From a virus, in the IMG/VR virus record IMGVR_UViG_3300035698_026991, positions 1,202 through 65,201 of that record: DNA of 64,000 nucleotides. The stretch is one strand, 5' to 3'. Every line of letters begins with the position of its first letter. The first letter of the stretch is position 1. The translations under genes were made by a program, and so were the position numbers. This document shows positions 18,133-43,364 of this stretch, piece after piece. The notes below the pieces were generated by a model. It was not told the DNA's origin. It ran no database searches and worked only from the letters and a program-made list of their open reading frames with translations.

Positions 18133-21100
18133 TTATTTATTAATGTTTGTTCTCGTTGTATCAAGTGGGTACATTGGGAACCCTGTTCCACTTAGTAATG
18201 ATCGTATTGTTTTTTGCATTACATTTTCTTTTGTCATTTTACCAATCGAGGTCCTACCTTGTGTAGCCATTGCGTTTCTTCTCATTACGTAACTCGGTAA
18301 GTAATTAATTGCCTCTGGTGACATACCTGTCATTCCCAAAGGTACACCTAGATAATTAGCAACTCCTGGGGTTATTGCATCAGTAACATTTCTTAATGCA
18401 TAAGGAGCTCTATCCTTGAAACTAACATTAATCTTTCTTCCTTTTTCATCATAGTTAGGATATAGAGGTTGACCGAATTGTCCCTGTGGACTCTGACCTG
18501 TACCCTTCAAAATCATTGGTTGAATAATAAAGTCTTTAAACATTTGTCCAATAGGATGTTGTAGGATAGGTAATTTATCTAATGTCTTTAATGCTGTACC
18601 CTGAGGAGAATCATCATAAGTTCTTTCTGATGGATTAAGCATATTCATTGTAAGATGTGGAATATAACCCTTAACATCTAAGTTCATCATTCCAAAGAAT
18701 TTTATAACAGTAGGTGAATTTAAGAATTGATTATATTTGTTTTCTAATGCAGCTCTTTCTTCTGGAGTTCTACTAGAGTTAATTTCATTTATTGCAAATG
18801 AAACTTTATTGAAATAAGCTGGGTTGTGCATAAGAGTTTTAGCTGTCTTTGGTAACATAGCATATTGGAATGATAAGAAAGGTGCGCTAACGATAGGTAG
18901 TGATCTCATTATTTTAACGAAATCTGGCATAGCTGAGTAATTCATGTAAGCCTCACTAGAGACTCTTGAAGCTGCTAAAGGTTTTATTTTATACAATCTT
19001 TCTCCTCCAGATATAACTGATGGCAAAACAGAATCTGTTAAATCTACAACGTTACCAACTTTAGCAAGTTCCTCTGCTGTTAAACCTACTTTAGTTAAAT
19101 AAATGAAATTACCAATTTTGAACCCTTGGTCAATACTTTCGTAGTTCTTTGTTAAACCATTAATAATCATATCTGCGTATTTAAGAGTAAAGTTATTTGG
19201 ATCCTCTGCTACTTTTTCTGCAAGCTTAGATCTAAATTTTTCATATCGAGAAGCTTCTGATATCTCACCACTTCCTAACCATGAACTATATTCATCTACA
19301 TTCGTTTTTCTTACATTATTAATAGAGTCTTCCATTCTCGCTTCTGCAGGTGTTGTAAATTTTTTACGATTTTCCTCCAGAACTTTTTCTGCAGTGATTT
19401 CACCACGAGTTTTTTTAGGAACTTCATCAACTGCATTGATTGCTTCGTCAGCAGCTCTAGAAACTTTTCCAACTTGATCTGGAATTTCATCTCCAATCTC
19501 TTTTATAATTTTTTCTACTTTTTTAACTTCATCAGAAAGACTTAATACCTGTCCAGCAAATTGTTTTTCTTGTTTCATCCTTTCAAATATTTCTAATGGG
19601 TTTACCCCCATGATACTTTTGAATACAGTAGGATTCTCTACTGCTAATTTTCTCATTGAATCATCTGCTCCTGTAAATACTTCTAAGAATTGTTTCATAG
19701 GTAATTTACCTTTAGCAAATTTACGCCCCTGCATAACAGCTTCGATATATTTTGGTTTATATGTAGGTAGACCCATCATTGCTCCCATAAAGTAATTACC
19801 TAAATAAGCAACAACATGTGATCCTAAGTTAAGAGGAACTTTGAAAGCTTTAAAAACATGAGTAAAGTTTTCTAAACCAGTAAGGATGTTATTAAGAGCT
19901 TTATAATTAACAAACTCTTTCCCTCCAGAATTCCATACGTCTGCAAGTTTTGTAGCATCTTTCTCAGCTTCAAGCACAGTCTTCTTACTTAAGACACGTC
20001 CAGCTTTCCAATCTTCTATAGTTGTGTTTTTAACTCTTCCAATAAAATCATCATATGACTTTACACCTGTCAAACCTGGGGTTAGAGGTTTATACATCTC
20101 TACCATTAGTTTTTGATCAACTACTTTCCCTGCTTGTTCTAATAAAGCATTCGCATTTTCAATACTATCAAGAATTTTAACTTGCCCACCTTGGAATTCT
20201 TTCTTTAAAGGATGTGAAATTGCTCCATCAGCATCAGTTACTGTATCTCTAATAAATTTCTCAACTTCTTGCTTAGATGTTGGATCAAATCTAGTTACCT
20301 TAGCTTTTGGATTATAATAGTCAGCTAAATCAAGGAAATCAGCTTTTTCTGCATTTCCTGTACCAATGACATCTATTTTACCCATCTCATGGATAACTTC
20401 ATCTTTCTTTTCCATTAAAGTACTTCTTCTTAATGGTGAATAATCAAAGAAGTCTGCTAATATATCTCCCTTTGTTTGACCTAATTTTTTTACACTCTCT
20501 TTACTTAAATGACGAAATCCTGGAATTTTACTTAAAGTTTCGTTTTTACCTCTTATAGCATCTTCAATATATCCTCCTACTTTACCTGATGCAAAACCTT
20601 TCCCCCTCACTAAACCTTTTCCTAAAGCTTCTAATGGGTCCTTACCTATCAATTTATCATATCTATCTGCATCTTTAACTGCCCTTGCAGCGAATCTCTC
20701 TGCTAATGTTTTACTTTTTTCTATTCCCTTAGTTACTGTCTTTGCAGCTGTTTTAAATCCTGCAAACTCACCTGCAGTATCAGCTACCTTACCAACTACT
20801 TTTGTAGCTGTCTTAATAGGAAGGAATTTTGAAGTTGTTATTGCCTTTCTACTTAAGTTAGATGTTAATCCTTTTCCAACAGCTTCAAGTGCGCCTTTAG
20901 CTCCAGATTTGGTTGCTCCTTTTACTAATCCAGTTCCTACTCTAGGAATCAACGCAGCTGAACCAGCTGTCGCCCAGTTAATAGGATCAAACATAACATC
21001 TAATAGGAAACCTAATGTTCCACGGACTGCTCTGTTATCTACACCTTCTTGTTTTAGAATATCTCCAAAGGTAAGACCTTTCTCTCTCGCTGCTTTTGTA

Positions 21101-21438
21101 TTTTCTAATAGACTAGATTTAGTCCCTTGTCCTAAAGCATATTGTGAAACACCAGCAATTGTATTAAGTGGTTTTTGAAGTCCTTCAAGTCCTCTCATAA
21201 ACAAACCTTCCGGTCTCTCAGTTGAGCCAGTACTTTTATCAGAAGCTCCATACCATCTATTACCTATCTGTTCACTTTTAATACCTTCAATCTGTCTTTT
21301 AAGTTTTGTTAAGTTTGAACTGATAGTTAAATCACCCTTACTAGGAGAGGTATTACGAGCATAAGCTGTAGTAGAGTTACTAAGCTGACTTTCCATTGTT
21401 GATCTTAAGTTTTCTAATTCTTGTATTGTTTTTGCCAT
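18133..21438 (-). CDS. large virion-associated protein (1101 aa), function unknown
   Basis: Single long ORF, Lys/Gly/Ala-rich N-terminal third. No recognisable catalytic motif. Confidence 0.4.
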   Translation of the reverse strand: MAKTIQELENLRSTMESQLSNSTTAYARNTSPSKGDLTISSNLTKLKRQIEGIKSEQIGNRWYGASDKSTGSTERPEGLFMRGLEGLQKPLNTIAGVSQYALGQGTKSSLLENTKAAREKGLTFGDILKQEGVDNRAVRGTLGFLLDVMFDPINWATAGSAALIPRVGTGLVKGATKSGAKGALEAVGKGLTSNLSRKAITTSKFLPIKTATKVVGKVADTAGEFAGFKTAAKTVTKGIEKSKTLAERFAARAVKDADRYDKLIGKDPLEALGKGLVRGKGFASGKVGGYIEDAIRGKNETLSKIPGFRHLSKESVKKLGQTKGDILADFFDYSPLRRSTLMEKKDEVIHEMGKIDVIGTGNAEKADFLDLADYYNPKAKVTRFDPTSKQEVEKFIRDTVTDADGAISHPLKKEFQGGQVKILDSIENANALLEQAGKVVDQKLMVEMYKPLTPGLTGVKSYDDFIGRVKNTTIEDWKAGRVLSKKTVLEAEKDATKLADVWNSGGKEFVNYKALNNILTGLENFTHVFKAFKVPLNLGSHVVAYLGNYFMGAMMGLPTYKPKYIEAVMQGRKFAKGKLPMKQFLEVFTGADDSMRKLAVENPTVFKSIMGVNPLEIFERMKQEKQFAGQVLSLSDEVKKVEKIIKEIGDEIPDQVGKVSRAADEAINAVDEVPKKTRGEITAEKVLEENRKKFTTPAEARMEDSINNVRKTNVDEYSSWLGSGEISEASRYEKFRSKLAEKVAEDPNNFTLKYADMIINGLTKNYESIDQGFKIGNFIYLTKVGLTAEELAKVGNVVDLTDSVLPSVISGGERLYKIKPLAASRVSSEAYMNYSAMPDFVKIMRSLPIVSAPFLSFQYAMLPKTAKTLMHNPAYFNKVSFAINEINSSRTPEERAALENKYNQFLNSPTVIKFFGMMNLDVKGYIPHLTMNMLNPSERTYDDSPQGTALKTLDKLPILQHPIGQMFKDFIIQPMILKGTGQSPQGQFGQPLYPNYDEKGRKINVSFKDRAPYALRNVTDAITPGVANYLGVPLGMTGMSPEAINYLPSYVMRRNAMATQGRTSIGKMTKENVMQKTIRSLLSGTGFPMYPLDTTRTNINK

Positions 21439-21452
21439 AATAGAAAATTATA

Positions 21453-21758
21453 TCATAGTCCTTGCTCTCCGAAAGCATGGAAGTACTTTTTTACCTTCCA
21501 GTTTGGGGAAAATTTAACAAGAGTCTTAGCTGGTAAATCGATTATTTCTCCTGTATTGACATTTGTAGTTCTTCGTCCTTTCATTACCTTTAAATTAAAT
21601 TCACCCCAATCAGGTAAATTAATAATTTGTTTATCTTTTAGTTCTCTTGAAATAGTTCTCACCATTCCATAGTAAAAATCTTTAACAGTATCTAAATCTC
21701 TTATACCTGCATTGACTGCAACCTTTCTAAAAAACTCTTCTGTTGGTATACTTTTCAT
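21453..21758 (-). CDS. HU/IHF-family DNA-binding protein
   Basis: GEFNLKVMKGRRTTNVNTGEIIDLPAKTLVKFSPNWKVKK matches the HU arm motif (R.GRNP.TGE.I.I.A...V.F..GK.LK). Confidence 0.6.
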   Translation of the reverse strand: MKSIPTEEFFRKVAVNAGIRDLDTVKDFYYGMVRTISRELKDKQIINLPDWGEFNLKVMKGRRTTNVNTGEIIDLPAKTLVKFSPNWKVKKYFHAFGEQGL

Positions 21759-21774
21759 AATTTTATTATATTAC

Positions 21775-21803
21775 TTGACAAGTGGATTTCATAAGTATAT
21801 CAT
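21775..21803 (+). promoter_or_regulatory. sigma70-type promoter (TTGACA-N17-TATCAT)
   Basis: ACTTGACAAGT extended -35 at 21775, TATCAT at 21798. ATG of the downstream gene at 21810 implies a leaderless or very short leader. Confidence 0.5.
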
Positions 21804-21809
21804 AAGTCT

Positions 21810-22178
21810 ATGACAAATAAAAATTTAAAATCTAAAAAATTAGTAATTGCATGGGATGTTGATGATACTATAATTATCCCTTCAGTAGCAACAGGTTTGG
21901 ATAGAGACGTTCCTAATTACGATACAATAGCAATATACAGATGGTTTCAAGCTCAAGGACATTATATGATAATTTGGTCAGGAGGAGGAAAAGATTATGC
22001 TGAAATGTGGGCAGAAAAATTAGGATTAGAAGCTGATGAAATTATGGCAAAAGATACTCGTTTGAAAGATAGGGTTGATATTTCTTTTGATGACTGTCTT
22101 GTAGATCTAGCTAAAGTGAACGTAAAAGTAAAGAGAATCAAAAATAGCGTTAGTAGAAAAGACTCGAACAAGAATTAG
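21810..22178 (+). CDS. HAD-superfamily hydrolase-like protein
   Basis: VIAWDVDDTII matches HAD motif I (DxDxT). 122 aa. Confidence 0.4.
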   Translation: MTNKNLKSKKLVIAWDVDDTIIIPSVATGLDRDVPNYDTIAIYRWFQAQGHYMIIWSGGGKDYAEMWAEKLGLEADEIMAKDTRLKDRVDISFDDCLVDLAKVNVKVKRIKNSVSRKDSNKN

Positions 22179-22237
22179 GAAATTACGAAATTTTTGATAT
22201 AATTAAGATAGTTCTTTTAACAAATTAGATTCATTCC

Positions 22238-22279
22238 TCCAATCGAAAGATTGGAAAAGGGAGCTCCCCGATTTTTTTT
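22238..22279 (+). terminator. rho-independent terminator (tandem hairpins + T8)
   Basis: TCCAATC-GAAA-GATTGGA hairpin, then the GGGAGCTCCC palindrome followed by TTTTTTTT. Confidence 0.6.
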
Positions 22280-22384
22280 GCTAGTAGTTTAATTTTTTTA
22301 TAACTTTTAAAATTAAAACTAATTAGCAAGTTTAATCTTGTTTTTCCCCCCAGCTATCTTATGCTTGGGGGAATGGATCTGAAA

Positions 22385-22457
22385 GCTTCTATAGCTCAGC
22401 TGGTAGAGCAATAGTTTTGTAAACTATAGGTCGTGGGTTCGATTCCTACTAGAAGCT
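22385..22457 (+). tRNA. tRNA-Thr (anticodon UGU)
   Basis: Manual fold: acceptor GCTTCTA/TAGAAGC, D-arm GCTC-AGCTGGTA-GAGC, anticodon arm ATAGT-TTTGTAA-ACTAT, T-arm GTGGG-TTCGATT-CCTAC. No encoded CCA. Confidence 0.85.
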
Positions 22458-22500
22458 CAGGTATTAGTTCATTGAAAATTGAGGTCAAGAAAAAAAATCT

Positions 22501-22911
22501 ATGAAAGAAGAAAAAGGTTTCCTTAAATGGAAACTACAACAAAAACCAACAGTCAGTGATGTTTCATCACTTGTGAATGTTGGAATACTTACGAAAGAAG
22601 AAGCAAGAAAAATTATTCTTGAACAAACAAACGATGTAAGACAAACAGACATAGAAGCTATTAAAGACGAAATAAAGCTTCTAAGAAAGTTAGTCTTAGA
22701 AAACTCACGAAGCAATCCTATCCAGATTGTTGAAATTATAAGAAGGGAAGTACAAGAAGTCCCTTATCGATGGACAAATCCCTATAATGTTTATTGCTCT
22801 AGCATGTCATCAGGGATATCAGATATTCAGACTGTCCCAGCATTAAGTTCGGACACAGGTGATAATTTAACAAAAAACGAACTTGTAGGTAGTACAATTA
22901 CTAAATTATAA
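22501..22911 (+). CDS. hypothetical protein
   Basis: 136-aa ORF following the tRNA. Confidence 0.4.
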   Translation: MKEEKGFLKWKLQQKPTVSDVSSLVNVGILTKEEARKIILEQTNDVRQTDIEAIKDEIKLLRKLVLENSRSNPIQIVEIIRREVQEVPYRWTNPYNVYCSSMSSGISDIQTVPALSSDTGDNLTKNELVGSTITKL

Positions 22912-23046
22912 GTAACTAATTGACCTCAATATTCAGTGAATTAAATGCTGTATTGATGGTTGAGGGGAGAGTAACTAAATAACCAGGGCAAGGAGATATC
23001 TGAAATCAACAACCTTGCCATCTCTCCTGAGGTATTAATACAGTAT

Positions 23047-23113
23047 ATCTCTGCTATTGGATAGATGACGGGTTCCAAACCTGTCTGAGAGGGTTCGATT
23101 CCTTCCAGAGGTG
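23047..23113 (+). ncRNA. tRNA-like element (possible non-canonical tRNA-Trp, anticodon CCA)
   Basis: Canonical T-arm GAGGG-TTCGATT-CCTTC, 7-bp acceptor ATCTCTG/CAGAGGT (one G-U) and anticodon arm ACGGG-TTCCAAA-CCTGT. The D-arm region is only 14 nt, so it does not fold as a standard tRNA. It sits in a 520-nt ORF-free structured region. Confidence 0.3.
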
Positions 23114-23445
23114 CAAAGATTTCGATCTTACTATGTGTGCTGACCACTCACTAGGGGCAAGTTGCTCGGAGTTAAGTCTCCAATGGTCTAGTTATGAAAC
23201 ATAAACAAAAAGTAAGAAAACATAGGAACAGAGGAAAATTCGTTTTCGAAGACAAATGGAGCTTTAAAAAAAGCTTTAAGAGAGATTATTATTTTAGGAG
23301 AAAGTTTAAGAAAGAAGTATATTTATATTATAGGTAATGTCATATTTCGGAATTGATACAGTTGTGTCATAATTCCGAAAAGTGGTTCTTTAAAAATTGA
23401 GGGTTAAGTCTATTCGGAAAGGATAGAATAATAACTAAAGAATAT

Positions 23446-23832
23446 ATGGAAAATATACCAGAGCCAATGGACAAAAATACAGAACCACAAGGAGTACAAG
23501 GAGTACAAACAACACAAGCAGAAAAAGACGAAAGAGAATACAAAATAAAGTGGAGAGAACTTAAGATAGCGAAAACTCGTTCTTTCGTTCTAAGAAAACA
23601 AATTACAGAAGCATATGAGATCCTAGAGAACATTAGATTCGATTACTTAGGAGATACAATGTTTCGTGATTACATTACAAAAGCAAAAAAAGAGTTAGAA
23701 GGAGCTATGACAGATTTCCTTTTATCAGATGGATATTGGGAAGGAAGAATTAAATTTCACAAGGAAATGTCATTCGAAGAATTTAAGAAAAGACGTGTAG
23801 AAGATATTGGACCAGAGTGTAACGTTAACTAA
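23446..23832 (+). CDS. hypothetical protein
   Basis: 128 aa. Precedes RmlB. Confidence 0.4.
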   Translation: MENIPEPMDKNTEPQGVQGVQTTQAEKDEREYKIKWRELKIAKTRSFVLRKQITEAYEILENIRFDYLGDTMFRDYITKAKKELEGAMTDFLLSDGYWEGRIKFHKEMSFEEFKKRRVEDIGPECNVN

Positions 23833-23869
23833 TTATCAATTTAGCCCTCAATTTTTAGCGAATAAAATT

Positions 23870-24811
23870 ATGAAAATGTTAATAACAGGTGGCGCGGGAT
23901 TTATAGGATCAAACTACATTCATTATGTGATGAAGAAGCATCCTGGTTATACAATTACAAATTTAGATTTATTAACCTATGCAGGTAATTTAAATAATCT
24001 AGTTGGTGTGGACCAGAGCGATGACTACGTTTTTATACAAGGGAATATCCTAGACGAATCATTAGTGAATAGATTAGTTAAAGAATCCGACATTGTTGTT
24101 AACTTTGCTGCAGAAAGTCATGTAGATAGATCAATAGAGAATCCAAACGATTTTACAATTACAAATACACTAGGAACTCAAGTATTATTGAATGCTTGTT
24201 TAAAATATAAAAAGAGATTCCATCAAATATCCACAGACGAGGTATTTGGTGATTTGCCGTTAATAGGGAAGGAGAAGTTCACTGAGAATACTTTGTACAA
24301 TCCTTCTAGCCCTTATTCAGCTTCCAAAGCTGCCGCAGATCATCTTGTACGAGCTTATCACAAAACCTATGGTCTTGATGTAACTATAACTAATTGTTCT
24401 AACAATTACGGAAGATTTCAACACGAAGAGAAGTTTCTACCTAAAATGATCATACAAGCTGTTAAAGGTGAGAAATTACCTATTTATGGTGAAGGAAAGA
24501 ACATGAGAGATTGGATACACGTAGAGGATCACTGTTCGGCCATAGATTTGGTCATTCAAGAAGGAAAAGTAGGAGAGACATACCTTGTAGGTGGTAATGC
24601 ATGCAAAAGCAATATAGATGTAGCAAACGAAATTTTAAAGGCTCTACATAGGGATAAATCCAGCCTCGAATTCGTCACAGACCGTCTTGGGCATGACCTT
24701 CGATACGAAGTAGATTCATCTAAGATAGAGAAAGAGCTCGGGTGGAAGAGAAAGTACAATTTTAAGGATGGATTAAAAGAAACAATTAATTGGTATACAC
24801 CAAGTTATTAA
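23870..24811 (+). CDS. rfbB: dTDP-glucose 4,6-dehydratase
   Basis: MKMLITGGAGFIGSNY Rossmann start, YSASKAAADHLVRAYHKTYGL (YxxxK catalytic motif), NCSNNYG. Start moved to the in-frame ATG at 23870 to avoid overlap. Confidence 0.85.
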   Translation: MKMLITGGAGFIGSNYIHYVMKKHPGYTITNLDLLTYAGNLNNLVGVDQSDDYVFIQGNILDESLVNRLVKESDIVVNFAAESHVDRSIENPNDFTITNTLGTQVLLNACLKYKKRFHQISTDEVFGDLPLIGKEKFTENTLYNPSSPYSASKAAADHLVRAYHKTYGLDVTITNCSNNYGRFQHEEKFLPKMIIQAVKGEKLPIYGEGKNMRDWIHVEDHCSAIDLVIQEGKVGETYLVGGNACKSNIDVANEILKALHRDKSSLEFVTDRLGHDLRYEVDSSKIEKELGWKRKYNFKDGLKETINWYTPSY

Positions 24812-24815
24812 AATT

Positions 24816-25100
24816 ATGAAAATGAAAATATCAAAGAAAAAGAACAATTTAGAGATTATCATCCCGCTGAAGACACATAGAAGTAACCCATACATGGGAG
24901 ATGAATTCCACCCAGAGATGGATAACCTAATTGGGTTGGTAGAGAATGAGAATGATTTTGGTTTTTGTTATCGTATAGATATGGATTACAAAGACAAACC
25001 AGACCAATGGACTGATTATGTCCTAAAACTAGATAAAGATATGGACGAAGAAGAATTTAGAGATTTATGTACAAAGTACAAAATAGACATAGTGGGTTAG
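24816..25100 (+). CDS. hypothetical protein
   Basis: 94 aa, acidic. Confidence 0.4.
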   Translation: MKMKISKKKNNLEIIIPLKTHRSNPYMGDEFHPEMDNLIGLVENENDFGFCYRIDMDYKDKPDQWTDYVLKLDKDMDEEEFRDLCTKYKIDIVG

Positions 25101-25101
25101 C

Positions 25102-25121
25102 TCACTAAAATCACGAGTCAA
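25102..25121. repeat. left arm of perfect 20-bp inverted repeat TCACTAAAATCACGAGTCAA
   Basis: Exact reverse complement present at 25475..25494. Arms sit 1 nt after the upstream stop and immediately after the stop of gene 25141..25461. Confidence 0.9.
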
Positions 25122-25140
25122 GTTAAGTCAAAAAAAAGTC

Positions 25141-25461
25141 ATGTCAAAAAGAGTACAAGAGAAGTTTATAGATCCAACAGCGCCTGTGGTAAAGAAGGGA
25201 GTGGAACATCATGCTGGATGGGTTTATACACAAAGAACATTAGATATTATCAACGGGAATCAGATGGCCATTATAGAAGCCCTTGGATTACCAGATAAAC
25301 AGGAGAATGCGCTTAAGTCTCAAGTCAGACAAGCGCTATACAGACCACAGAGGTTAGCACACTTCCTAACTGCTCAAGAAATGGCAGATAGGAGCGATGA
25401 GGAAGCAGAAACATTAAAGGATTTGCCTTTAGATATTAATACCCTAAGAAACGTAAGGTAG
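25141..25461 (+). CDS. hypothetical protein (gene bracketed by 20-bp inverted repeats)
   Basis: 106-aa ORF. No recognisable domain. Confidence 0.4.
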   Translation: MSKRVQEKFIDPTAPVVKKGVEHHAGWVYTQRTLDIINGNQMAIIEALGLPDKQENALKSQVRQALYRPQRLAHFLTAQEMADRSDEEAETLKDLPLDINTLRNVR

Positions 25462-25474
25462 ATTATTAAAATTA

Positions 25475-25494
25475 TTGACTCGTGATTTTAGTGA
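25475..25494. repeat. right arm of perfect 20-bp inverted repeat TTGACTCGTGATTTTAGTGA
   Basis: Reverse complement of 25102..25121. Confidence 0.9.
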
Positions 25495-26694
25495 ATTACA
25501 TCCAGAACAGGTGGGGCGTCAGCCCCCTCACCGCCAGCCTAGGCAGAAGCGAGAGCGAGGTAAAGCCATACTGAATTTTGATGGTTTTAATATGCATTCT
25601 CGTGATAACTTCATAAAAGCGGTATACCTGTTCCGGATATAGTTCATTAAGTTTTATATTATTGGAGGGTGATAGCAAGTTCGTTCACAGTATTGCTTGA
25701 GCCTAAGGTGTGAATGGAGGGGTAAAACTCTCCAATAGTATAAAATAAATAATATGAAAAAAATTGATTTCAACAAAACGTGTTGTTTCCAATGCGAAAA
25801 AATTTGTGATTCGAAGTTAGATCTTTTAAGCATCAAATTATATGGTATATGCAAAGGATGCATAAAAAAAGGTGGCAAACAAGAAAAACACCTAATGCAA
25901 ACTTACATAAACAGTTAATACCACAAAACGAATAACAACAGGCATATAACAAAGGGTACCTAACTAAAGGTACCCTTTTCATTATTTATTTTTTAGAATT
26001 TTTCACCTTCCCCATTACGCATAACGAGAAACGTACCCTACACCCCCCACCCTATCCCTCTAACCTTCTCTTACGAGTTTTAAGCTATTAACAACACATT
26101 ATACCTATATACGCTTTAAACCTCTTAGGGGTTGAGGAATTAACTGTAAACAGCATTGGGGAGTCTGGTAGTTAGTAGTGAACTGCGCGTAGTTCGTAAT
26201 GTATGGAATTGGAAAAGTGAGTCAGAAATGCAGATGGGTACGTTACCCTTATAGTTACTTGTAATATTGGGACCCCTAACAGACAACCCCCCAACCCCCA
26301 ATTACGAACTCCACACTGCACACAGCACAAAGCGCACATCGTCTATTATGCACACTCTTCGCTCTTCGCTGTGCATAGCTTTTCTCTCATAGTTAAAACG
26401 GTATTCCCTACACACAGACACTTCGTGTCTGTTACAGTGGTTTCTTACAGTTCTTCTCTGCGTTGTTCGTTGTTGGTTGTGTACATCGTATGGTGTAAAA
26501 CTACTTCTTTGAGTATCTAAGGTCGTAACACTAATAGATAGTGTGGATACTCTTATTAGATATTAGTAAGTAGGTTTAGCACCGAACTCCGAGTTTTCCG
26601 TATAAACACTCGTCACGCACATCGCACCACGCACACCTCACAGGTATGCAGCATACATCTATGCAAGCGATAGCATTACGAGATTAAACCTAAC

Positions 26695-27000
26695 TACTAA
26701 GCACCACCGTAGCGAGTTAGTCACAGGAAGTTTATATATATCTAACTAAGACATCTAGATCTACATCTAGACCAGTTAGAGTATGTAAGGCGACTGGAAA
26801 CAAACCCAGTTAGTAAGGACCGTAGATCCTTATATCCTGTTACTAACTCGTTACACACCACCGTAGCGAATTAGCTACAGAAGAATATTTGATATTGCTA
26901 GAATGTCATTATTAGTGAAGAGGACTCTTCACAGCAAGCCAGCTAGAGTCTTGCCTTCTGTTGCTAATTCGTTACACACCACAATAACGAGCTACACGCA
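26695..27000. repeat. degenerate direct repeats (~40 bp, three copies) inside ORF-free CA-rich region
   Basis: CTACTAAGCACCACCGTAGCGAGTTAGTCACAG (26695), TAACTCGTTACACACCACCGTAGCGAATTAGCTACAG (26843) and TAATTCGTTACACACCACAATAACGAGCTACACGCAG (26964). Also the perfect 8-bp IR GTGAAGAG/CTCTTCAC at 26917. Confidence 0.7.
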
Positions 27001-27192
27001 GCGGATAAACATATCCGTCGTGCATCCTGTTCTTTGACATCTTATATTGATAATATCATATTATTTTTACATAGATTACGCATTAGACCTCTAGTCTTCT
27101 GCGTCTAGCTCGTTATAACCTCTATAGCATAACCACTTAGAGTTATGTTATATCACTATTGCTATAACTATAGCATTAACTATATAATCATT

Positions 27193-27627
27193 ATGGAATT
27201 AAAAAACCTTTTAGACTTCTCTATTACTAGAATCATCGCTTTCAATTCAGATAAGACTAGCGCTGAAGTTAAGCTTGGAGAATGTTTCAAATCTTTATCA
27301 GGATCTAACCCTACTATTAAACCAGATTGCAATGTCAAAGATGCGACATTCAGTAATCCTTCTGAATGGGGAGTTAGGGAGTTCACAGTTACTGATAAAG
27401 CAACTGAAGAAGTAATACAAATTACTTCCTATTACCAAAACATCAATGGTCCTGCATCTCGTTTCTTCGTGACCACTGAAGTTGCTAATAAGTTCTTAGC
27501 TAAGGCTAGCAACCTAAAGGAAAGTAGAATCTCAATAGGAGACTTTCAACCTACTGATGAGCAAAGAGCTTACCTAGAGAAGAAACACGATGGTAAGACA
27601 CCAGGTTACGCACCATTGGTAGCATAA
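27193..27627 (+). CDS. hypothetical protein
   Basis: Listed ORF 27145..27627. Probable start at MELKNLLDF (27193) after an AT-rich leader. Confidence 0.4.
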   Translation: MELKNLLDFSITRIIAFNSDKTSAEVKLGECFKSLSGSNPTIKPDCNVKDATFSNPSEWGVREFTVTDKATEEVIQITSYYQNINGPASRFFVTTEVANKFLAKASNLKESRISIGDFQPTDEQRAYLEKKHDGKTPGYAPLVA

Positions 27628-27645
27628 CTAAATAACTATAACTTA

Positions 27646-27701
27646 AGCACTATAACTATTACTATTGCATTTGCAATCTTAGTAGCTATAGTGCTTTTTT
27701 T
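27646..27701 (+). terminator. rho-independent terminator (long imperfect hairpin + T7)
   Basis: AGCACTATA...ATTGCATTTGCAAT...TATAGTGCT followed by TTTTTTT. Confidence 0.55.
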
Positions 27702-27913
27702 ATACACTACGCACGGTTCACTTAAGCGATAGCTACAACTCATAGCTCTCTCTCTACCATGAGCCGAACATATAGCTAATTCTATCAGGGATAATATATA
27801 AAGATAACTTAAGGATATCTAACTAATAAATTTAAGAATACAAACATCAGTACACAATTTAGGCTTTTCAATTTATTTAACTATCTATATTATCCCTACA
27901 GAGTTAGTTATAC

Positions 27914-27932
27914 ATTATTAATTACCTTAACC
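27914..27932 (+). promoter_or_regulatory. conserved 19-nt upstream motif ATTATTAATTACCTTAACC (copy 1)
   Basis: Motif 13 nt upstream of the ATG of the small membrane-protein gene 27945. Confidence 0.6.
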
Positions 27933-27944
27933 ATCAACACAACT

Positions 27945-28088
27945 ATGTTCTTAACTATAATAGCCACACTTCTCGCTGTAGCACTAATGATAGCAGTAGT
28001 AGTGACAACAGACTTCAAGTCTTTCTTCTCAGTTTGTATAACACTACTAGTAGTCGCTTTACTAAGTGTTCTAATAGCAACAATCTAA
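27945..28088 (+). CDS. small hydrophobic membrane peptide (47 aa)
   Basis: MFLTIIATLLAVALMIAVVVTT.. found by manual translation. Preceded by the conserved motif. Confidence 0.4.
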   Translation: MFLTIIATLLAVALMIAVVVTTDFKSFFSVCITLLVVALLSVLIATI

Positions 28089-28093
28089 GAGAC

Positions 28094-28112
28094 ATTATTA
28101 ATTTCCTTAATC
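28094..28112 (+). promoter_or_regulatory. conserved upstream motif ATTATTAATTTCCTTAATC (copy 2)
   Basis: 13 nt upstream of ATG 28125. Confidence 0.55.
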
Positions 28113-28124
28113 ACCTTAAACAAT

Positions 28125-28358
28125 ATGTTTAATATAAAAGATAGAAAAACTCTAAACACTATATCTAAAGTAGTTGGAAAAACATTTAAAGAAATAAGAG
28201 AAATACTCAAACTAGTAAAAAAAGCACTCAAACTAGTGAAAGGAGTAGATACATCACAGGAAAAAACGACAAAAAGACTAAACAACATTGAAAAGAAATA
28301 TTACACAAAGAAAGAAGTTGATACAATAATAAAAAAACTTAAAACCCAAAAGAAATAA
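28125..28358 (+). CDS. small Lys-rich coiled-coil protein
   Basis: 77-aa ORF following motif copy 2. Confidence 0.45.
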   Translation: MFNIKDRKTLNTISKVVGKTFKEIREILKLVKKALKLVKGVDTSQEKTTKRLNNIEKKYYTKKEVDTIIKKLKTQKK

Positions 28359-28369
28359 AGCAAAACCAC

Positions 28370-28388
28370 ATTATTAATTACCTTAACC
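28370..28388 (+). promoter_or_regulatory. conserved upstream motif ATTATTAATTACCTTAACC (copy 3)
   Basis: 14 nt upstream of ATG 28402. Confidence 0.6.
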
Positions 28389-28401
28389 CACCGCAAACAA
28401 T

Positions 28402-28584
28402 ATGAATCACTACCCACCAATTTCATTACTAGTAGCAATCATCCCATCAGCACCTATATTCAGCTTTGGATACCAAGCAATGGGCATAGAACCCACAGGG
28501 TTACTAGTTTCAATATCATTCATCTTATTACTAATTCAAGTCGCAGGACTAGTTACATACATACTAACTGAAGTATGTAAGTAA
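28402..28584 (+). CDS. small membrane protein (60 aa)
   Basis: Two hydrophobic segments. Confidence 0.45.
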   Translation: MNHYPPISLLVAIIPSAPIFSFGYQAMGIEPTGLLVSISFILLLIQVAGLVTYILTEVCK

Positions 28585-28586
28585 GT

Positions 28587-28605
28587 ATTACTAATTCCCT
28601 TAACC
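28587..28605 (+). promoter_or_regulatory. conserved upstream motif ATTACTAATTCCCTTAACC (copy 4)
   Basis: 10 nt upstream of ATG 28615. Confidence 0.55.
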
Positions 28606-28614
28606 AATCCTATT

Positions 28615-28764
28615 ATGCACTATCTTATTCACTTAACTTTATTCTTCGTAGGACTTACTTTAGTCCTACAAGATATACCTACACACCCATTCTTATTCCT
28701 TACAGGTTTCATAGTCTTAGGGATATGGTATGGGAATGTATTCCTATCACCTAATGATTATTAA
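28615..28764 (+). CDS. small membrane peptide (49 aa)
   Basis: MHYLIHLTLFFVGLTLVLQD.. by manual translation. Confidence 0.35.
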   Translation: MHYLIHLTLFFVGLTLVLQDIPTHPFLFLTGFIVLGIWYGNVFLSPNDY

Positions 28765-28775
28765 TCACCTTAATT
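28757..28775 (+). promoter_or_regulatory. conserved upstream motif ATTATTAATCACCTTAATT (copy 5)
   Basis: 12 nt upstream of ATG 28787. Confidence 0.5.
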
Positions 28776-28786
28776 AACTAAAACAA

Positions 28787-28957
28787 ATGAGATGCTTAAA
28801 ATGGTTACAACCACACATATGGGGTAAATGGAAAATGAAAGAAACAGGAAAGATAATAGTAAATGAAAAGAATAAAGGAAGCTATTGGATACAAGAAAGA
28901 GAATGCACATTATGTGGATACAAAGAATTCAAAGAGTCAAAAACAGAACAAATCTAA
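28787..28957 (+). CDS. small KW-rich peptide with C-terminal ECxLCG motif (56 aa)
   Basis: LQPHIWGKWKMKETG...ERECTLCGY. Paralogous to 34355..34522. Confidence 0.4.
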   Translation: MRCLKWLQPHIWGKWKMKETGKIIVNEKNKGSYWIQERECTLCGYKEFKESKTEQI

Positions 28958-28958
28958 T

Positions 28959-28976
28959 ATTATTAATTAACTTAAC
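28959..28976 (+). promoter_or_regulatory. conserved upstream motif ATTATTAATTAACTTAAC (copy 6)
   Basis: 5 nt upstream of ATG 28981. This supports 28981 as the true start of listed ORF 28885..29454. Confidence 0.5.
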
Positions 28977-28980
28977 TGCA

Positions 28981-29454
28981 ATGCACTCAAACATATTAAA
29001 TGCGTTTAATAAGCTAAATCAATCAGCTAGTTCAGTCAACACATCAACCATTACTGCACAAGAACAATATACTCAGTTATTTTGCAATAATGAAATCAAA
29101 AGTAAAGATGGGATGTTAACACAGGTACTTATACAAAAAGGCCTCAATATCAATGAAACAATGAAAGCATCTTCGTTAATAAAACTATTTATCTTTGATA
29201 AAAACATATCTTGGTTCAGAGGGAACAAGACACCAGCTCTTATGTGCAAAGATAATATAATTAAAGTAATACTCAAAAAAGAAAAGTTCACTGATGAAGA
29301 AATGACAAGAACATTAGAGCTTATTCAACTCACAGACCAAGACCCGAACCTTAGTTGGACAACAGATTCAAAACATCAAGTATATGAAGATGAAGACGAA
29401 GACGATGATGATGATGATGATGATGATGATACTTGGGACTATGATGAAGACTAA
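28981..29454 (+). CDS. triplicated-family protein, copy 1 (acidic poly-Asp C-terminus)
   Basis: Shares the FNK.N start, L.DKNISW and LIELTDKD..L.WE.D blocks with 29485..29961 and 29966..30409. Ends with a 13-residue poly-Asp run. Confidence 0.5.
   Translation: MHSNILNAFNKLNQSASSVNTSTITAQEQYTQLFCNNEIKSKDGMLTQVLIQKGLNINETMKASSLIKLFIFDKNISWFRGNKTPALMCKDNIIKVILKKEKFTDEEMTRTLELIQLTDQDPNLSWTTDSKHQVYEDEDEDDDDDDDDDDTWDYDED
29404..29439. repeat. (GAT)12 trinucleotide repeat encoding poly-Asp
   Basis: gatgatgatgat... read directly. Confidence 0.9.
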
Positions 29455-29455
29455 A

Positions 29456-29473
29456 ATTATTAATAACCTTAAC
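29456..29473 (+). promoter_or_regulatory. conserved upstream motif ATTATTAATAACCTTAAC (copy 7)
   Basis: 12 nt upstream of ATG 29485. Confidence 0.55.
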
Positions 29474-29484
29474 AATTAATCACT

Positions 29485-29961
29485 ATGTATAATAAACTAA
29501 TTAGCCAATTCAACAAAGTAAACAACACAACCAAAGCTCCTATAGTAGAACAACCAGCAGTATCAGCTTTCCCAGGATTAAAAACAATGTCAGATATATT
29601 CAATAAAGATAATATGATTAAGCAAATCCTTAGATACAAAAACCTACAAGAGAGAAGAGTAACGAAAGCACTCATGATCATAAAAGTTATCCTACTTGAT
29701 AAAGATATACCTTGGGAAAGAGATTCAGTAGGATTTGCTCTAACTAAAGATAAGATGCTACAGATGATACTAGTAGTAGCTGAGATGCCTACACAAAACA
29801 TCAAAAGAACTATTGGACTTATACAAGAAGCAAACGGAGACACTGAACTTGAATGGTTAGAAGATCGTACATCTAAAATATCAAAAAAACTAGAAGGATT
29901 AGACACAGCAAAGAAAATCGATATGCTTAAAGAGCTAAACGAGAATAATAAACTAGTATAG
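29485..29961 (+). CDS. triplicated-family protein, copy 2
   Basis: Paralog of the flanking genes (LLDKDIPWE, LIQEANGDTELEWLED). Confidence 0.5.
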   Translation: MYNKLISQFNKVNNTTKAPIVEQPAVSAFPGLKTMSDIFNKDNMIKQILRYKNLQERRVTKALMIIKVILLDKDIPWERDSVGFALTKDKMLQMILVVAEMPTQNIKRTIGLIQEANGDTELEWLEDRTSKISKKLEGLDTAKKIDMLKELNENNKLV

Positions 29962-29965
29962 TATT

Positions 29966-30409
29966 ATGAAAGCAAACTTAATAGCCCAGTTCAAAAAGCT
30001 AAAAGACAACGAACCTATAGAGCCCAAACAATTGTCAGATAGCCAAAGAACATACAACGAAATGAGACCTAAAGTGAATAGATACAAGGACATGATGATT
30101 CAAGAAATATTATTATCAAAAGGAATCACACACGAGAAATTAATGGTAGTAAAATCATTAGTTAAATTTGCCCTACTTGATAAAAATATAAGCTGGGAAA
30201 AAGAAACTGAAAACTCATTATTAACTAAAGAAAAAATGATCTCATTAATATTAATAAGAGAAAAAATAGACAACAATACAACAAAAGAAATTCTAAATCT
30301 TATAGAACTAACAGACAAAGACAACACACTTAAATGGGAACAAGACTTCGTATCTGGAATCTATGAAGATAAAGATAGCACTCAACTATGTGCAACCACT
30401 AGTACCTAA
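29966..30409 (+). CDS. triplicated-family protein, copy 3
   Basis: Paralog (LLDKNISWEKE, LIELTDKDNTLKWEQD). No separate motif copy, 5 nt after the previous stop. Confidence 0.5.
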   Translation: MKANLIAQFKKLKDNEPIEPKQLSDSQRTYNEMRPKVNRYKDMMIQEILLSKGITHEKLMVVKSLVKFALLDKNISWEKETENSLLTKEKMISLILIREKIDNNTTKEILNLIELTDKDNTLKWEQDFVSGIYEDKDSTQLCATTST

Positions 30410-32349: not shown

Positions 32350-32508
32350 TCGTTAACCAACTTAGGTTGGTTAAACCTTGGGGAATTGTTGTGAAAGCAA
32401 CATCTACAGCAATAGCGAGGGTAACCAAAGTGATATTCGTACGGGAATTGAACTTAATTATTCCTTAGAGATTGTCTCCAAGATTTAACCAATCTAAGTT
32501 ATAAGCAA

Positions 32509-43177: not shown

Positions 43178-43364
43178 ATTAAGAACTGGACAGAGAGGAT
43201 AAGAGATATGTTTTATCTAGAATAAACTCTTATACAGCGGTGCAAACTACATTTGTAATTTATTTTCCGCCTTACCAACTTCATACCCCTTCGGATACTA
43301 CATTGTGCCTTATAGCCGTTTGCAAGGGCTATTATTCAGCCACCTCTCTGTTCAGTTTTCAATA

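What the first reader, a model, noticed from the sequence alone, without database searches (positions are those of the whole stretch)
25495..27144. 1.65-kb ORF-free, compositionally distinct (GC/CA-rich) region with degenerate ~40-bp direct repeats
No ORF of 60 aa or more occurs in any frame for about 1.3 kb, and the region has a marked C/A strand bias (..CACACCACCGTAGCGA.., ..CACGCACATCGCACCACGCACACC..). At least three degenerate ~40-bp direct repeats end in CACAG (26695, 26843, 26964), spaced 120-150 bp, plus perfect short hairpins such as GTGAAGAGGACTCTTCAC. It separates the sugar/tRNA genes from the motif-driven early-gene island. Candidate functions are an iteron-type replication origin, a pac/cos packaging region, or a long structured ncRNA. 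The irregular repeats rule out a CRISPR array.
Basis: seen in the sequence. Interest (0 to 1): 0.75.

Follow-up and report, generated by a model that had tools for sequence, protein, structure and literature searches.

The report
Array of folded RNA modules in phage
This gene-free, G+C-rich stretch of an uncultured phage most likely encodes a row of hairpin-closed structured RNAs of no described family, placed just ahead of the early genes; it is not a replication origin, and its function is unknown.

Summary
The observation largely holds. Window 25879-27144 has no ORF of 60 aa or more, 26001-27000 is 42% G+C against about 32% elsewhere, and the three direct repeats are real.

The repeats are not iterons. 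Each is the 3' arm of one long-range stem, an 8-nt linker (ACACCACC), and the 5' arm of the next stem. Four tandem modules (A-D, 113-146 nt) are each closed by a 16-21-bp helix. Among B, C and D the two arms changed together at 8 positions, with a conserved G·U and a conserved pyrimidine mismatch.

The only close relative found (L009 lineage) has a gene-free region at the same place. It keeps two sequence islands, a hairpin with 3 compensatory pairs and module A, but it lacks B-D and carries a 36-nt tandem hairpin (2-6 copies in assemblies).

More distant relatives (L003, L028) have similar stem-closed modules or about 25 tRNAs at the same position. Across 14 closing stems the non-Watson-Crick pairs are G·T 17 times and A·C 3 times on the early-gene strand, which points to RNA.

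No Rfam family matches. The best reading is a + strand cluster of structured RNA modules behind a C-rich, unstructured spacer. A DNA-level role (genome end, packaging) is not excluded. Evidence is thin: two lineages and no transcript data.

The parts
25488..25650 (+). Module E1: about 160-nt G+C-rich multi-hairpin element closed by a 25-nt stem (25488-25512 / 25626-25650)
   Evidence: Inverted repeat I1. The fold of 25470-25760 has z = -7.7. MFE is -63.2 kcal/mol on the + strand and -59.7 on the - strand. No Rfam match at E<=10.
25652..25745 (+). Module E2: long hairpin with 19-23-nt arms, ending 8 nt before the start codon of the 54-aa ORF
   Evidence: Inverted repeat I4. MFE is -37.3 on the + strand against -19.1 on the - strand; the closing stem has 2 G.U and no A.C.
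25754..25918 (+). 54-aa ORF with two CxxC pairs (zinc-ribbon-like). It lies inside the finding but is not part of the RNA element.
   Evidence: Only a weak zinc-finger Pfam hit, E = 0.031. Absent from L009.
25951..25995 (+). Intrinsic-terminator-like hairpin (11 pairs) and T-run that closes the upstream + strand genes; a hairpin sits at the same place in L009
25996..26410 (+). Unstructured spacer with a C-rich / G-rich / C-rich composition. Short perfectly conserved runs: TATTTTTTAGAATTT (25987-26001) and TTACGAGTTTTAAGC (26071-26085). Two C6 tracts.
   Evidence: C/G profile. Fold z-scores are -0.6, +1.1 and -0.4 on the + strand. The pairwise column-shuffle test shows no conserved structure. 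Perfect runs.
26178..26262 (.). Conserved island 1: perfect runs of 13, 24 and 17 nt shared with L009 (GTGAACTGCGCGT; GGAATTGGAAAAGTGAGTCAGAAA; GTTACCCTTATAGTTAC)
   Evidence: 35/40 identical in the best window against a neutral proxy of 0.65 from four-fold sites. No conserved ORF. No conserved fold.
26414..26432 (+). Hairpin H1 (8 bp, UUC loop), followed by a pyrimidine-rich run. Three base pairs are exchanged on both sides relative to L009.
   Evidence: Scored as terminator-like in L009.
26563..26700 (+). Module A: stem-closed element whose closing stem, 5' interior (island 2, 26557-26636) and inner helix CUCGU/ACGAG are conserved in L009. Its centre is variable; in L009 the centre holds the 36-nt tandem hairpins.
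   Evidence: (z = -4.6 on +); 23 pairs kept in both lineages, none broken, G.U on the + strand.
26709..26854 (+). Module B: 20-bp closing stem around a three-hairpin interior
   Evidence: z = -8.1 for the whole module and -4.6 for the interior alone. Arms: 18 Watson-Crick pairs, 1 G.U, 1 C.U.
26863..26975 (+). Module C: 21-bp closing stem. The interior includes GTGAAGAGGACTCTTCAC.
   Evidence: z = -6.9. Arms: 19 Watson-Crick pairs, 1 G.U, 1 U.U.
26984..27116 (+). Module D: 18-bp closing stem. The interior is A+T-rich, not significantly folded, and contains a promoter-like TTGACA-17-CATATT at 27034-27062.
   Evidence: z = -5.2 for the whole module and -0.4 for the interior. Promoter scan. Arms: 17 Watson-Crick pairs, 1 C.C.
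26701..26708 (+). 8-nt linker GCACCACC. Sister linkers are ACACCACC at 26855-26862 and ACACCACA at 26976-26983.
27124..27151 (+). Terminal hairpin whose loop and flank carry the conserved CCACTTAGAGTT. L009 has a hairpin with different stem partners around the same loop.
   Evidence: Read directly from the sequences; no statistical test was made.
27159..27627 (+). Right flank: promoter-like TTGCTA-18-TATAAT (27159-27188) and the 144-aa gene (27193-27627), which is the anchor used to find the relative
   Evidence: The protein has no family match, but residues 16-73 resemble a repeat of a protein that carries HYR (Ig-like) domains.

Best explanation
The interval belongs to an RNA-gene island of an uncultured virulent phage. 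It is most likely transcribed on the + strand, the direction of the neighbouring tRNA and early genes.

The functional units are stem-closed RNA modules: E1 and E2 on the left and A, B, C and D on the right. Each is a 95-160-nt multi-hairpin domain shut by a 16-25-bp helix. Modules A-D are joined by short single-stranded CA-rich linkers.

Inferred mechanism. The roughly 20-bp closing helices of B, C and D carry a conserved G.U and a conserved pyrimidine-pyrimidine mismatch. These would be recognition or processing signals for a double-strand-specific ribonuclease (RNase III type) or a dedicated binding protein. The row would then be cut into, or displayed as, separate small stable RNAs, much as tRNAs, phage T4 stable RNAs and rRNAs are released from precursors.

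The 3' part evolves by adding and multiplying modules: three extra modules here, a 36-nt hairpin repeat in the relative. That is the behaviour expected of an RNA whose effect depends on the number of displayed sites, such as a decoy or sponge.

The 400-nt C-rich, G-poor spacer in front is unstructured. It holds two sequence islands that are read as sequence, by a protein or by base pairing.

Shown: the anatomy, selection on base pairing, conservation of position, and absence of coding potential. Inferred: transcription, the strand for A-D, processing, and any decoy role.
For: 1. Pairing under selection. Among the paralogous closing stems of B, C and D, 8 positions changed on both sides with pairing kept. 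The only non-pairs are a G.U at position 4 and a Y.Y mismatch at one fixed position. Within-module pairing (18-19 Watson-Crick pairs) beats the alternative pairing across junctions (11-15 Watson-Crick pairs, 4-5 mismatches).

2. Stability. Fold z-scores for A, B, C and D on the + strand are -4.6, -8.1, -6.9 and -5.2. For E1+E2 the value is -7.7.

3. Comparison with the relative. L009 (144-aa protein 66% identical, 1101-aa protein 76%) has a gene-free region at the same place. Between 26389 and 26596 there are 29 consensus pairs: 9 changed on both sides, 3 on one side, none broken. All 23 pairs of module A are kept. No reading frame is conserved.

4. Strand. In 14 closing stems from five lineages, the non-Watson-Crick positions are G.T 17 times and A.C 3 times on the early-gene strand. 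For the first 12 stems the count was 16:3, binomial p = 0.004. Base composition would favour the opposite bias. For E2 and for the two L009 modules E1' and E2', the + strand folds are 17-21 kcal/mol better than the - strand folds.

5. A sibling module. The module at 32359-32500 is about 85% identical in L009. It has 48 pairs: 3 compensatory, 4 one-sided through G.U, none broken.

6. Synteny. L009 has three tRNAs directly upstream. The distant relative L028 has about 25 tRNAs on the equivalent strand, then about 950 nt of non-coding DNA with a stem-closed module before its first early gene. In L003 the syntenic 740 nt folds into a row of stem-closed modules, z = -5.3.

7. Composition. High G+C in an A+T-rich genome is a classical mark of structured RNA genes (general knowledge).

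8. Precedent. Phage ICP1 and phage K each produce abundant long non-coding transcripts; in ICP1 the transcript comes from an approximately 1-kb ORF-free gap, and in phage K two long non-coding RNAs lie near tRNA genes (PMC7567579, PMC9241854).
Against: There are no transcript data, and no convincing promoter was found for the element.

Only two lineages can be aligned. Their four-fold degenerate sites are still 65% identical, so the 63% identity of most of the 5' half is no more than neutral. Only 26178-26262 and 26557-26636 exceed it.

The 5' 400 nt has no significant fold on either strand.

The strand signal for A-D alone is weak (2 G.U against 1 A.C). Modules A and D fold more stably on the - strand, and internal helices show no bias (23 against 17).

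The interiors of C and D are not significantly structured on their own.

No Rfam family matches.

The copy-number differences of the 36-nt repeat may be assembly artefacts, since arrays of four or more copies (144 nt or longer) exceed k = 141.
Confidence: 0.45

Rival explanations
1. The same + strand RNA is not a free-standing RNA but a long cis-acting leader of the early operon. Transcription would start near 26000. The C-rich, G-poor tract would load Rho or act as a spacer. The hairpin modules would act on the transcribing polymerase or on RNA stability (antitermination, or RNase III processing that shapes the 5' end of the early mRNA) before the 144-aa gene and the 14-kb early block.
For: The element ends 40-70 nt before the first early gene in both lineages and has no strong terminator of its own. 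The 144-aa gene is followed by its own terminator, and the early block contains many small genes, so read-through control would make sense. C/G ratios of 5-12 over more than 80 nt resemble Rho-utilisation sites (general knowledge of rut sites).
Against: A promoter-like TTGCTA-18-TATAAT/TATTAT lies between the modules and the gene in both lineages, and module D holds another promoter-like site. These suggest that the gene has its own start. Modules B-D are absent from L009 although the gene is kept. No similarity to known antitermination RNAs was found in Rfam.
Confidence: 0.2
2. The region is a DNA-level cis element at or near the physical ends of the genome. It would be the non-coding zone between the last-entering and first-entering genes, with terminase recognition sites, a terminal repeat and/or signals that control DNA injection. 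The known parallels are the end regions of T7-like phages and the repeat-rich untranslated injection-stop region of T5.
For: The position is right: a terminator closes one gene block, then about 1.1 kb of non-coding DNA, then the first early genes all point away. The two conserved islands are unstructured and could be protein-binding sites. T5 has a 1,662-bp non-coding region full of direct and inverted repeats that is better conserved than its coding neighbours (bioRxiv 10.1101/866236). From memory, the T7 end regions are also C/A-rich and repetitive. Short contigs of this phage from other samples start or stop at 25782-25789 and 27760/61.
Against: Compensatory change in 110-150-nt multi-hairpin modules and the G.T over A.C bias are not expected for double-stranded protein sites. 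All contigs that reach the region run through it without ending inside it, apart from breaks in the 36-nt repeat. DnaA-box clusters as in T5 are absent. The contig-end coincidences lie outside the 26000-27144 core and can be coverage gaps in low-coverage samples.
Confidence: 0.15
3. The region is a replication origin, either iteron-type or primed by a structured pre-primer transcript as in ColE1 or phage T4. In the second case the G-rich minus-strand RNA would form a stable hybrid with the C6 tracts.
For: There are repeats, an A+T-rich patch inside module D, and two conserved C6 tracts (G6 on the - strand). Module A folds better on the - strand.
Against: The repeats are not phased iterons. The region is the most G+C-rich 1-kb window in the 64 kb profiled. 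DnaA boxes are not clearly enriched and not conserved. The primase-helicase and other replication genes lie more than 20 kb away, next to far more A+T-rich intergenic DNA at 41-42 kb and 54-55 kb. GC skew follows gene orientation only.
Confidence: 0.07
4. The modules are DNA elements defined by their terminal inverted repeats. They would be either invertible switches (invertons) that carry promoters, or miniature transposable elements that have accumulated in a tolerant intergenic zone.
For: Arms of about 20 nt flank interiors of 56-300 nt, which is inverton-like geometry. Module D carries a + strand promoter-like site and module C a - strand one. The 8-nt linkers could be read as target duplications. 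Modules come and go between lineages.
Against: The G.T over A.C bias of 17:3 on one strand is not expected for DNA repeats. The interiors are unrelated to each other, unlike copies of one mobile element. Three independent assemblies show one orientation and do not break at the arms. The Pfam and PHROG scans covered only about 20 of the window's proteins and named no recombinase; a systematic scan was not made.
Confidence: 0.05

Closest known systems
Large phage-borne non-coding RNAs next to tRNA genes (GOLLD, ROOL; the ICP1 ~800-nt transcript; phage K lnc001/lnc002)
   Same: It is about 1 kb, ORF-free and G+C-enriched, in a phage. In the relatives it sits beside tRNA genes and is predicted to be highly folded in part. 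The function of the known examples is also unknown (PMC7567579, PMC9241854).
   Different: There is no sequence or covariance-model similarity. GOLLD, ROOL and all other Rfam families score nothing at E<=1 to 10, and the phage DNA search finds nothing. It is not one ornate fold: it is an unstructured C-rich half followed by a row of separate, fast-turning-over stem-closed modules.
manA RNA motif (Rfam RF01745; described from marine bacteria and cyanophages)
   Same: Sibling modules of the same phages give full-length but sub-threshold matches of 20-21 bits and share the core GGUGGCUGAAUAA. These are window 43189-43364 on the - strand and L009 8262-8431. They are stem-closed, about 170-nt, multi-hairpin elements in a phage that also carries a nucleotide-sugar epimerase gene.
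   Different: None of the modules inside the finding (E1, E2, A-D) matches manA even at E<=10, and the core motif is absent from 25400-27250. The sibling matches are far below the gathering score of 55.2.
RNase III processing stems of phage T7 early RNA and of rRNA/tRNA operons; stable RNAs of the phage T4 tRNA cluster (textbook knowledge, not tested here)
   Same: Helices of about 20 bp with a conserved internal mismatch bracket the RNA segments. The segments are arranged head to tail in one transcription unit next to tRNA genes.
   Different: Cleavage has not been shown. T7 sites are about 60-nt simple hairpins between genes. Here the helices enclose 70-106-nt branched interiors, and there are no genes between them.
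Phage T5 injection-stop / repeat region 3 (bioRxiv 10.1101/866236)
   Same: It is a non-coding region of more than 1 kb, crowded with direct and inverted repeats, close to the early genes, and retained among relatives.
   Different: The T5 region is thought to act as DNA and has eight ordered DnaA boxes. No such cluster is present here, and the stems show RNA-type wobble bias.
Type III toxin-antitoxin antitoxin arrays (ToxI and relatives)
   Same: In L009 a perfect 36-nt tandem repeat (the ToxI unit length) lies about 110 nt upstream of a small protein gene, and its copy number varies.
   Different: The window phage lacks the 36-nt repeat but keeps the protein. The protein has no ToxN/AbiQ-type match in Pfam or PADLOC, and residues 16-73 look like an Ig-like (HYR-type) repeat. 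Rfam ToxI models do not match.

Membership tests
Iteron-type replication origin | Three or more direct repeats of about 17-22 bp in helical phase, bound by an initiator | tested here: not met
   The direct repeats are 121 and 154 nt apart. Each is a 3' arm, a linker and a 5' arm of inverted pairs.
Iteron-type replication origin | Adjacent A+T-rich unwinding element, DnaA boxes, or a neighbouring initiator gene | tested here: not met
   The region is the most G+C-rich 1-kb window of the 64 kb profiled. DnaA-like sites are 5.9 against 3.5 per kb and not conserved in position. The flanking genes have no replication-related match.
pac/cos packaging site or terminal repeat | Defined DNA ends or a coverage step in virion DNA; terminase cleavage at the site | not testable with these tools
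   No reads are available. No contig ends inside 26000-27144.
CRISPR array | Regularly spaced near-identical direct repeats with unique spacers of similar length | tested here: not met
   There are three degenerate copies (72-100% identity), irregular spacing and paired inverted arms.
GOLLD / ROOL / OLE / any Rfam family | Covariance-model score at or above the family gathering score | tested here: not met
   Only tRNA was found in 20000-30000 at E<=1. Only noise was found in 25400-27250 at E<=10. The result is the same for the L009 region, apart from tRNAs and a weak manA hit outside the homologous part.
manA RNA (RF01745) | Model score of at least 55.2 bits; conserved core GUGaCUGAAUAA | tested here: not met
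   There is no hit in the finding and the core motif is absent. Sibling modules elsewhere reach 20-21 bits.
Structured RNA (generic criterion) | Base pairs kept through changes on both sides; wobble pairs on one strand only | tested here: met
   There are 8 double-sided changes among the B, C and D closing stems. There are 9 double-sided changes and no broken pairs in 26389-26596 against L009. G.T against A.C is 17:3 in 14 closing stems. Caveats: there are only two lineages, and the strand signal is pooled over sibling modules.
Structured RNA (generic criterion) | Evidence of transcription with defined ends | not testable with these tools
   No RNA data are available. The promoter and terminator scans are inconclusive.
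Type III toxin-antitoxin locus | Tandem 34-46-nt repeats followed by a ToxN/AbiQ/CptN-type endoribonuclease gene | tested here: not met
   The repeats exist only in L009. The downstream protein has no such match in Pfam, PADLOC or the PDB sequence search. The structure model was unusable, pLDDT 42.
Inverton (invertible promoter) | Both orientations present in a population; an invertase available | tested here: inconclusive
   Three assemblies show one orientation. No read-level test is possible. The window was not scanned systematically for recombinases.
T5-type injection-stop region | Ordered set of DnaA boxes within conserved repeats, inside the terminal repeat | tested here: not met
   There is no conserved DnaA-box array. 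The terminal-repeat status is not testable.

The most novel reading that the evidence does not exclude
The locus could be a new class of modular phage RNA. It would be a transcript that displays a variable number of independently evolving, stem-closed domains and CA-rich single-stranded linkers. The domains would be released or recognised through a shared closing helix of about 20 bp that carries a fixed G.U and a fixed pyrimidine mismatch. The RNA would act early in infection as a multivalent decoy for a host RNA-binding protein or defence nuclease. Rapid gain of modules (B-D here) and expansion of a 36-nt hairpin (2-6 copies in the relative) would then be the trace of an arms race.
Probability: 0.15. 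Interest if true: 0.75.

Novelty: new variant of a known kind. Interest (0 to 1): 0.5.

Why it matters
Phages are known to carry large non-coding RNAs whose roles are still unknown. Almost all described cases come from a few cultured phages or from the Rfam families GOLLD and ROOL.

This locus has a different architecture. An unstructured C-rich half is followed by a row of stem-closed modules that share a closing helix but not their contents. Similar stem-closed modules recur at the same position across a deep, uncultured phage clade that also carries tRNA arrays, manA-like RNAs and, in one member, a tmRNA.

If the RNAs are expressed, the shared closing helix is a concrete, testable processing or recognition signal. 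The lineage-specific gain of modules points to a dosage-dependent function. If the region instead marks the genome ends, it defines the entry point of the early genes for this clade.

Either way, the result corrects the reading of the repeats as iterons.

Tried and rejected
**Searches for relatives**
1. DNA similarity to about 50,000 phage records, near and distant modes: no match.
2. Exact-pattern scans for the junction motif and for conserved blocks in IMG/VR and GTDB genomes: only chance hits inside unrelated coding genes.
3. Protein anchors.
   - The 144-aa and 106-aa proteins have no relatives in IMG/VR.
   - The metagenome scan returned only an identical contig and the L009 contig.
   - Contigs of a third lineage (65-80% identity anchors; L010, L011, L016) stop before the region.
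   - Variants of the L009 lineage (L023-L027) are 99.9% identical and give no covariation.
4. BLAST and nhmmer of the region against distant relatives L003-L006: nothing.

**Ideas considered and dropped**
5. A hidden small protein gene is rejected: every translated alignment with L009 has stops.
6. I first read hairpin H1 as a cUUCGg tetraloop, which would have argued for RNA. On recount it is a UUC triloop closed by C-G, so I withdrew that argument.
7. Overall sequence conservation as evidence of constraint is rejected for most of the 5' half, because four-fold sites are equally conserved.
8. Strand assignment from fold energies and from wobble pairs in internal helices is inconclusive.
9. 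The type III antitoxin idea is not supported. The AlphaFold model of the 144-aa protein was useless, pLDDT 42.
10. A DnaA-box array as in T5 or oriC is absent.
11. The contig-end coincidences at 25782-25789 and 27760/61 were considered as termini. No repeat explains them, and they fit coverage gaps in low-coverage samples equally well.
Full report
**Context**

The window is part of a virulent-type tailed phage with no cultured relatives.
- Its large terminase is at most about 27% identical to any record in the phage collection.
- PHROG scans name a portal, major head protein, terminase, GroEL, primase-helicase and UvsX-like recombinase.
- Structural genes lie on the - strand from 1 to 21758. 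From 21810 to about 41300 everything is on the + strand. This block holds one tRNA-Thr (22385-22458), a nucleotide-sugar epimerase, and then many small genes.
- Seven of these small genes, between 27914 and 29473, are preceded by the motif ATTATTAATTACCTTAAC.

The finding lies between these two parts.

**Check of the observation**

- There is no ORF of 60 aa or more from 25879 to 27144.
- The left 400 nt of the stated interval is different. It holds two structured elements, a plausible 54-aa four-cysteine ORF (25754-25918), and a strong terminator hairpin with a T-run (25951-25995).
- G+C is 42% in 26001-27000 against 30-36% around it.
- The C-over-G bias is real but patchy.
- The three direct repeats exist. 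Their sequence occurs nowhere else in the window and none is expected by chance.

**Anatomy**

The repeat finder shows that every direct repeat is flanked by inverted partners about 100 nt away. Read together, the right half is four tandem modules:
- A, 26563-26700
- B, 26709-26854
- C, 26863-26975
- D, 26984-27116

Each is closed by a 16-21-bp helix. They are separated by the 8-nt linkers GCACCACC, ACACCACC and ACACCACA.

The closing stems of B, C and D are paralogous, but their interiors are unrelated.
- Aligned, the three stems differ at 8 positions on both sides with pairing kept.
- B and C share a G.U at position 4.
- All three share a pyrimidine-pyrimidine mismatch at one place.
- Pairing within a module gives 17-19 Watson-Crick pairs. 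The alternative small palindromes across the linkers give 11-15 with 4-5 mismatches.

Fold energies are far below those of shuffled sequence: z = -4.6, -8.1, -6.9 and -5.2 for A-D. The interior alone is significant for B (-4.6) and marginal for A (-2.9). It is not significant for C or D.

On the left, E1 (25488-25650) and E2 (25652-25745) are built the same way.

By contrast, 26000-26410 has no significant fold on either strand.

**Relatives**

DNA searches of phage records, IMG/VR and GTDB genomes found nothing or only chance hits. The 144-aa protein just downstream has one homologue cluster (66% identity) on a 33.9-kb JGI contig, fetched as L009.
- In L009 the gene is preceded by 2.2 kb without called genes. 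This stretch holds a pseudo-tRNA, two stem-closed elements with paralogous closing stems, tRNA-Thr, tRNA-Trp and tRNA-Tyr, and a hairpin.
- It then holds about 930 nt that align with window 25990-26700 and 27117-27190.
- Modules B-D are absent from L009.
- Inside module A, L009 has a perfect 36-nt tandem hairpin instead. Copy number is 4 in L009, and 2, 2, at least 3, and 6 in other assemblies of the same lineage that are otherwise 99.9% identical. Because some arrays exceed the assembler k-mer, this variation needs long reads to confirm.

**How much is conserved**

Four-fold degenerate sites of six orthologous genes are 65% identical (372 of 568). The aligned non-coding core is 63% identical. 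Plain sequence conservation therefore proves nothing for most of the 5' half.

Two islands stand out:
- 26178-26262, with perfect runs of 13, 24 and 17 nt. By arithmetic, 0.65^24 is about 3e-5 per start position.
- 26557-26636, the 5' part of module A.

No frame is open in both lineages.

A column-shuffle test on the pairwise alignment finds conserved structure only between about 26400 and 26600. There RNAalifold gives 29 pairs: 9 changed on both sides, 3 on one side, none broken. Three of the double changes are in hairpin H1 (26414-26432).

With its variable centre replaced, module A keeps all 23 pairs in both lineages, with G.U pairs on the + strand.

**RNA or DNA, and which strand**

I collected all long-range closing stems found by the strand-symmetric repeat finder in the window, L009, L003, L006 and L028. 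I then classed their non-Watson-Crick positions on the strand of the early genes.
- The result is 17 G.T against 3 A.C. For the first twelve stems it is 16:3, p = 0.004.
- The local base composition (A 30%, C 23%, G 17%, T 30%) would favour A.C, so the bias is not compositional.
- E2 and the two L009 modules E1' and E2' fold 17-21 kcal/mol better on the + strand.
- A sibling module at 32359-32500 is about 85% identical in L009. It has 48 pairs: 3 compensatory, 4 one-sided through G.U, none broken.

This is what selection on a + strand RNA fold predicts. It is not what protein-binding palindromes, invertons or transposon ends predict.

The caveats are real:
- For A-D alone the count is 2:1.
- A and D fold better on the - strand.
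- Internal helices show no bias, 23:17.

**Wider synteny**

Relatives at about 40% protein identity cannot be aligned at the DNA level, but they keep the design.
- In L003, the 740 nt before the first gene that carries the ATTATTAATTA motif fold into a row of modules closed by 20-22-bp stems. The z-score is -5.3 on the equivalent strand and -3.7 on the other.
- In L028, the same place holds about 25 tRNA genes on the equivalent strand and a tmRNA. About 950 nt of non-coding DNA with a 25-bp-closed module then precede the first early gene.

The region is therefore the local form of an RNA-gene island typical of this clade.

**Comparison with known families**

- Rfam gives only tRNAs in and around the finding. 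GOLLD, ROOL, OLE, ToxI and the ribozyme families do not match.
- Two sibling modules outside the finding give full-length but sub-threshold matches to manA RNA (20-21 bits against a cut-off of 55.2). These are window 43189-43364 on the - strand and L009 8262-8431, and they share its core GGUGGCUGAAUAA. The modules of the finding do not.
- The literature gives precedents. ICP1 produces an abundant long non-coding transcript from an approximately 1-kb ORF-free gap, and phage K has two long non-coding RNAs near tRNA genes.
- It also gives a DNA-level precedent, the 1,662-bp repeat-rich injection-stop region of T5. The ordered DnaA boxes of T5 have no counterpart here.

**The downstream protein**

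The 144-aa protein has no Pfam, PHROG, PADLOC or PDB-sequence match of note. A full HMMER scan finds only itself and a 1,153-aa protein with HYR (Ig-like) repeats, which matches residues 16-73 five times. The structure model was unusable. This argues against a toxin-antitoxin reading of the L009 36-nt repeats.

**Conclusion**

- Most likely (about 0.45): a + strand cluster of stem-closed structured RNA modules behind an unstructured C-rich spacer, with the shared closing helix as a processing or recognition signal.
- About 0.2: the same RNA acts in cis as a leader of the early operon.
- About 0.15: a DNA-level role at the genome ends.
- Unlikely: an origin (0.07), or invertons or mobile elements (0.05).

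Of its three candidate functions, the RNA one is favoured, the iteron origin is not supported, and packaging remains untested.

Noticed in passing
window 25102-25121 and 25475-25494: A perfect 20-bp inverted repeat brackets the 106-aa ORF (25141-25461). The left copy (ATCACGAGTCAAGTTAAGT) also precedes a different 92-aa ORF in L009 (7497-7516). It may be a shared promoter or operator, or the ends of a small cassette.
   Followed up: partly
window 27914-29473 (+): The motif ATTATTAATTACCTTAAC occurs 7 times (0.6 expected), each about 13-15 nt before the ATG of a small early gene. Similar motifs precede the first early genes of L003 and L028. It is probably an early promoter or initiation signal specific to this clade.
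   Followed up: partly
window 32359-32500; L009 12636-12780: An intergenic stem-closed module is about 85% identical between the two lineages. It has 48 predicted pairs: 3 compensatory, 4 one-sided through G.U, none broken. No Rfam match. It is a good candidate for a new small structured RNA.
   Followed up: partly
window 43189-43364 (-); L009 8262-8431 (+): Both give full-length but weak matches to manA RNA (RF01745; 20.0 and 21.3 bits, cut-off 55.2) and share GAGAGGTGGCTGAATAA. They are probably divergent manA-like RNAs, in a phage that also encodes a nucleotide-sugar epimerase.
   Followed up: partly
L028 3904-7623 and 8566-8950: A distant relative (70-76 kb contigs) carries about 25 tRNA genes in one array and a full-length tmRNA (79.8 bits, E = 4e-30) next to its HU gene, at the place syntenic to the finding.
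   Followed up: no
L009/L018: terminase gene (865 aa) and endolysin region (L009 1545-3250): In the L009 lineage the large terminase carries an intein with a LAGLIDADG domain (865 aa against 490 aa in the window). The endolysin gene is split by a 204-aa ORF with a NUMOD3 domain, which suggests insertion of a homing endonuclease.
   Followed up: no
window 25782-25789 and 27760-27761; L009 7956-8096: Short contigs of the window phage from two or three other assemblies start or stop at the same points, and no repeat explains this. Two contigs of one L009-lineage sample overlap by exactly 141 nt (the assembler k) at the pseudo-tRNA. Contig L024 lacks L009 8069-8333. Together these point to population-level insertion/deletion variation in the RNA island.
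   Followed up: partly
window 23047-23113 and 23194-23337; L009 7887-8102: A degenerate tRNA-like sequence (22.9 bits in the window, 25.8 bits in L009) lies next to a conserved 47-aa basic ORF (68% identity) in both lineages. The two features are in opposite order in the two lineages.
   Followed up: no
window 27787-27897: A further stem-closed module (21-nt arms, 18 Watson-Crick pairs) lies between the terminator of the 144-aa gene and the first early-gene motif. It is absent from L009.
   Followed up: partly
window 48759-50381 (-): The phage encodes a GroEL-type chaperonin (PHROG 5725, E = 3.5e-136) next to the primase-helicase gene.
   Followed up: no
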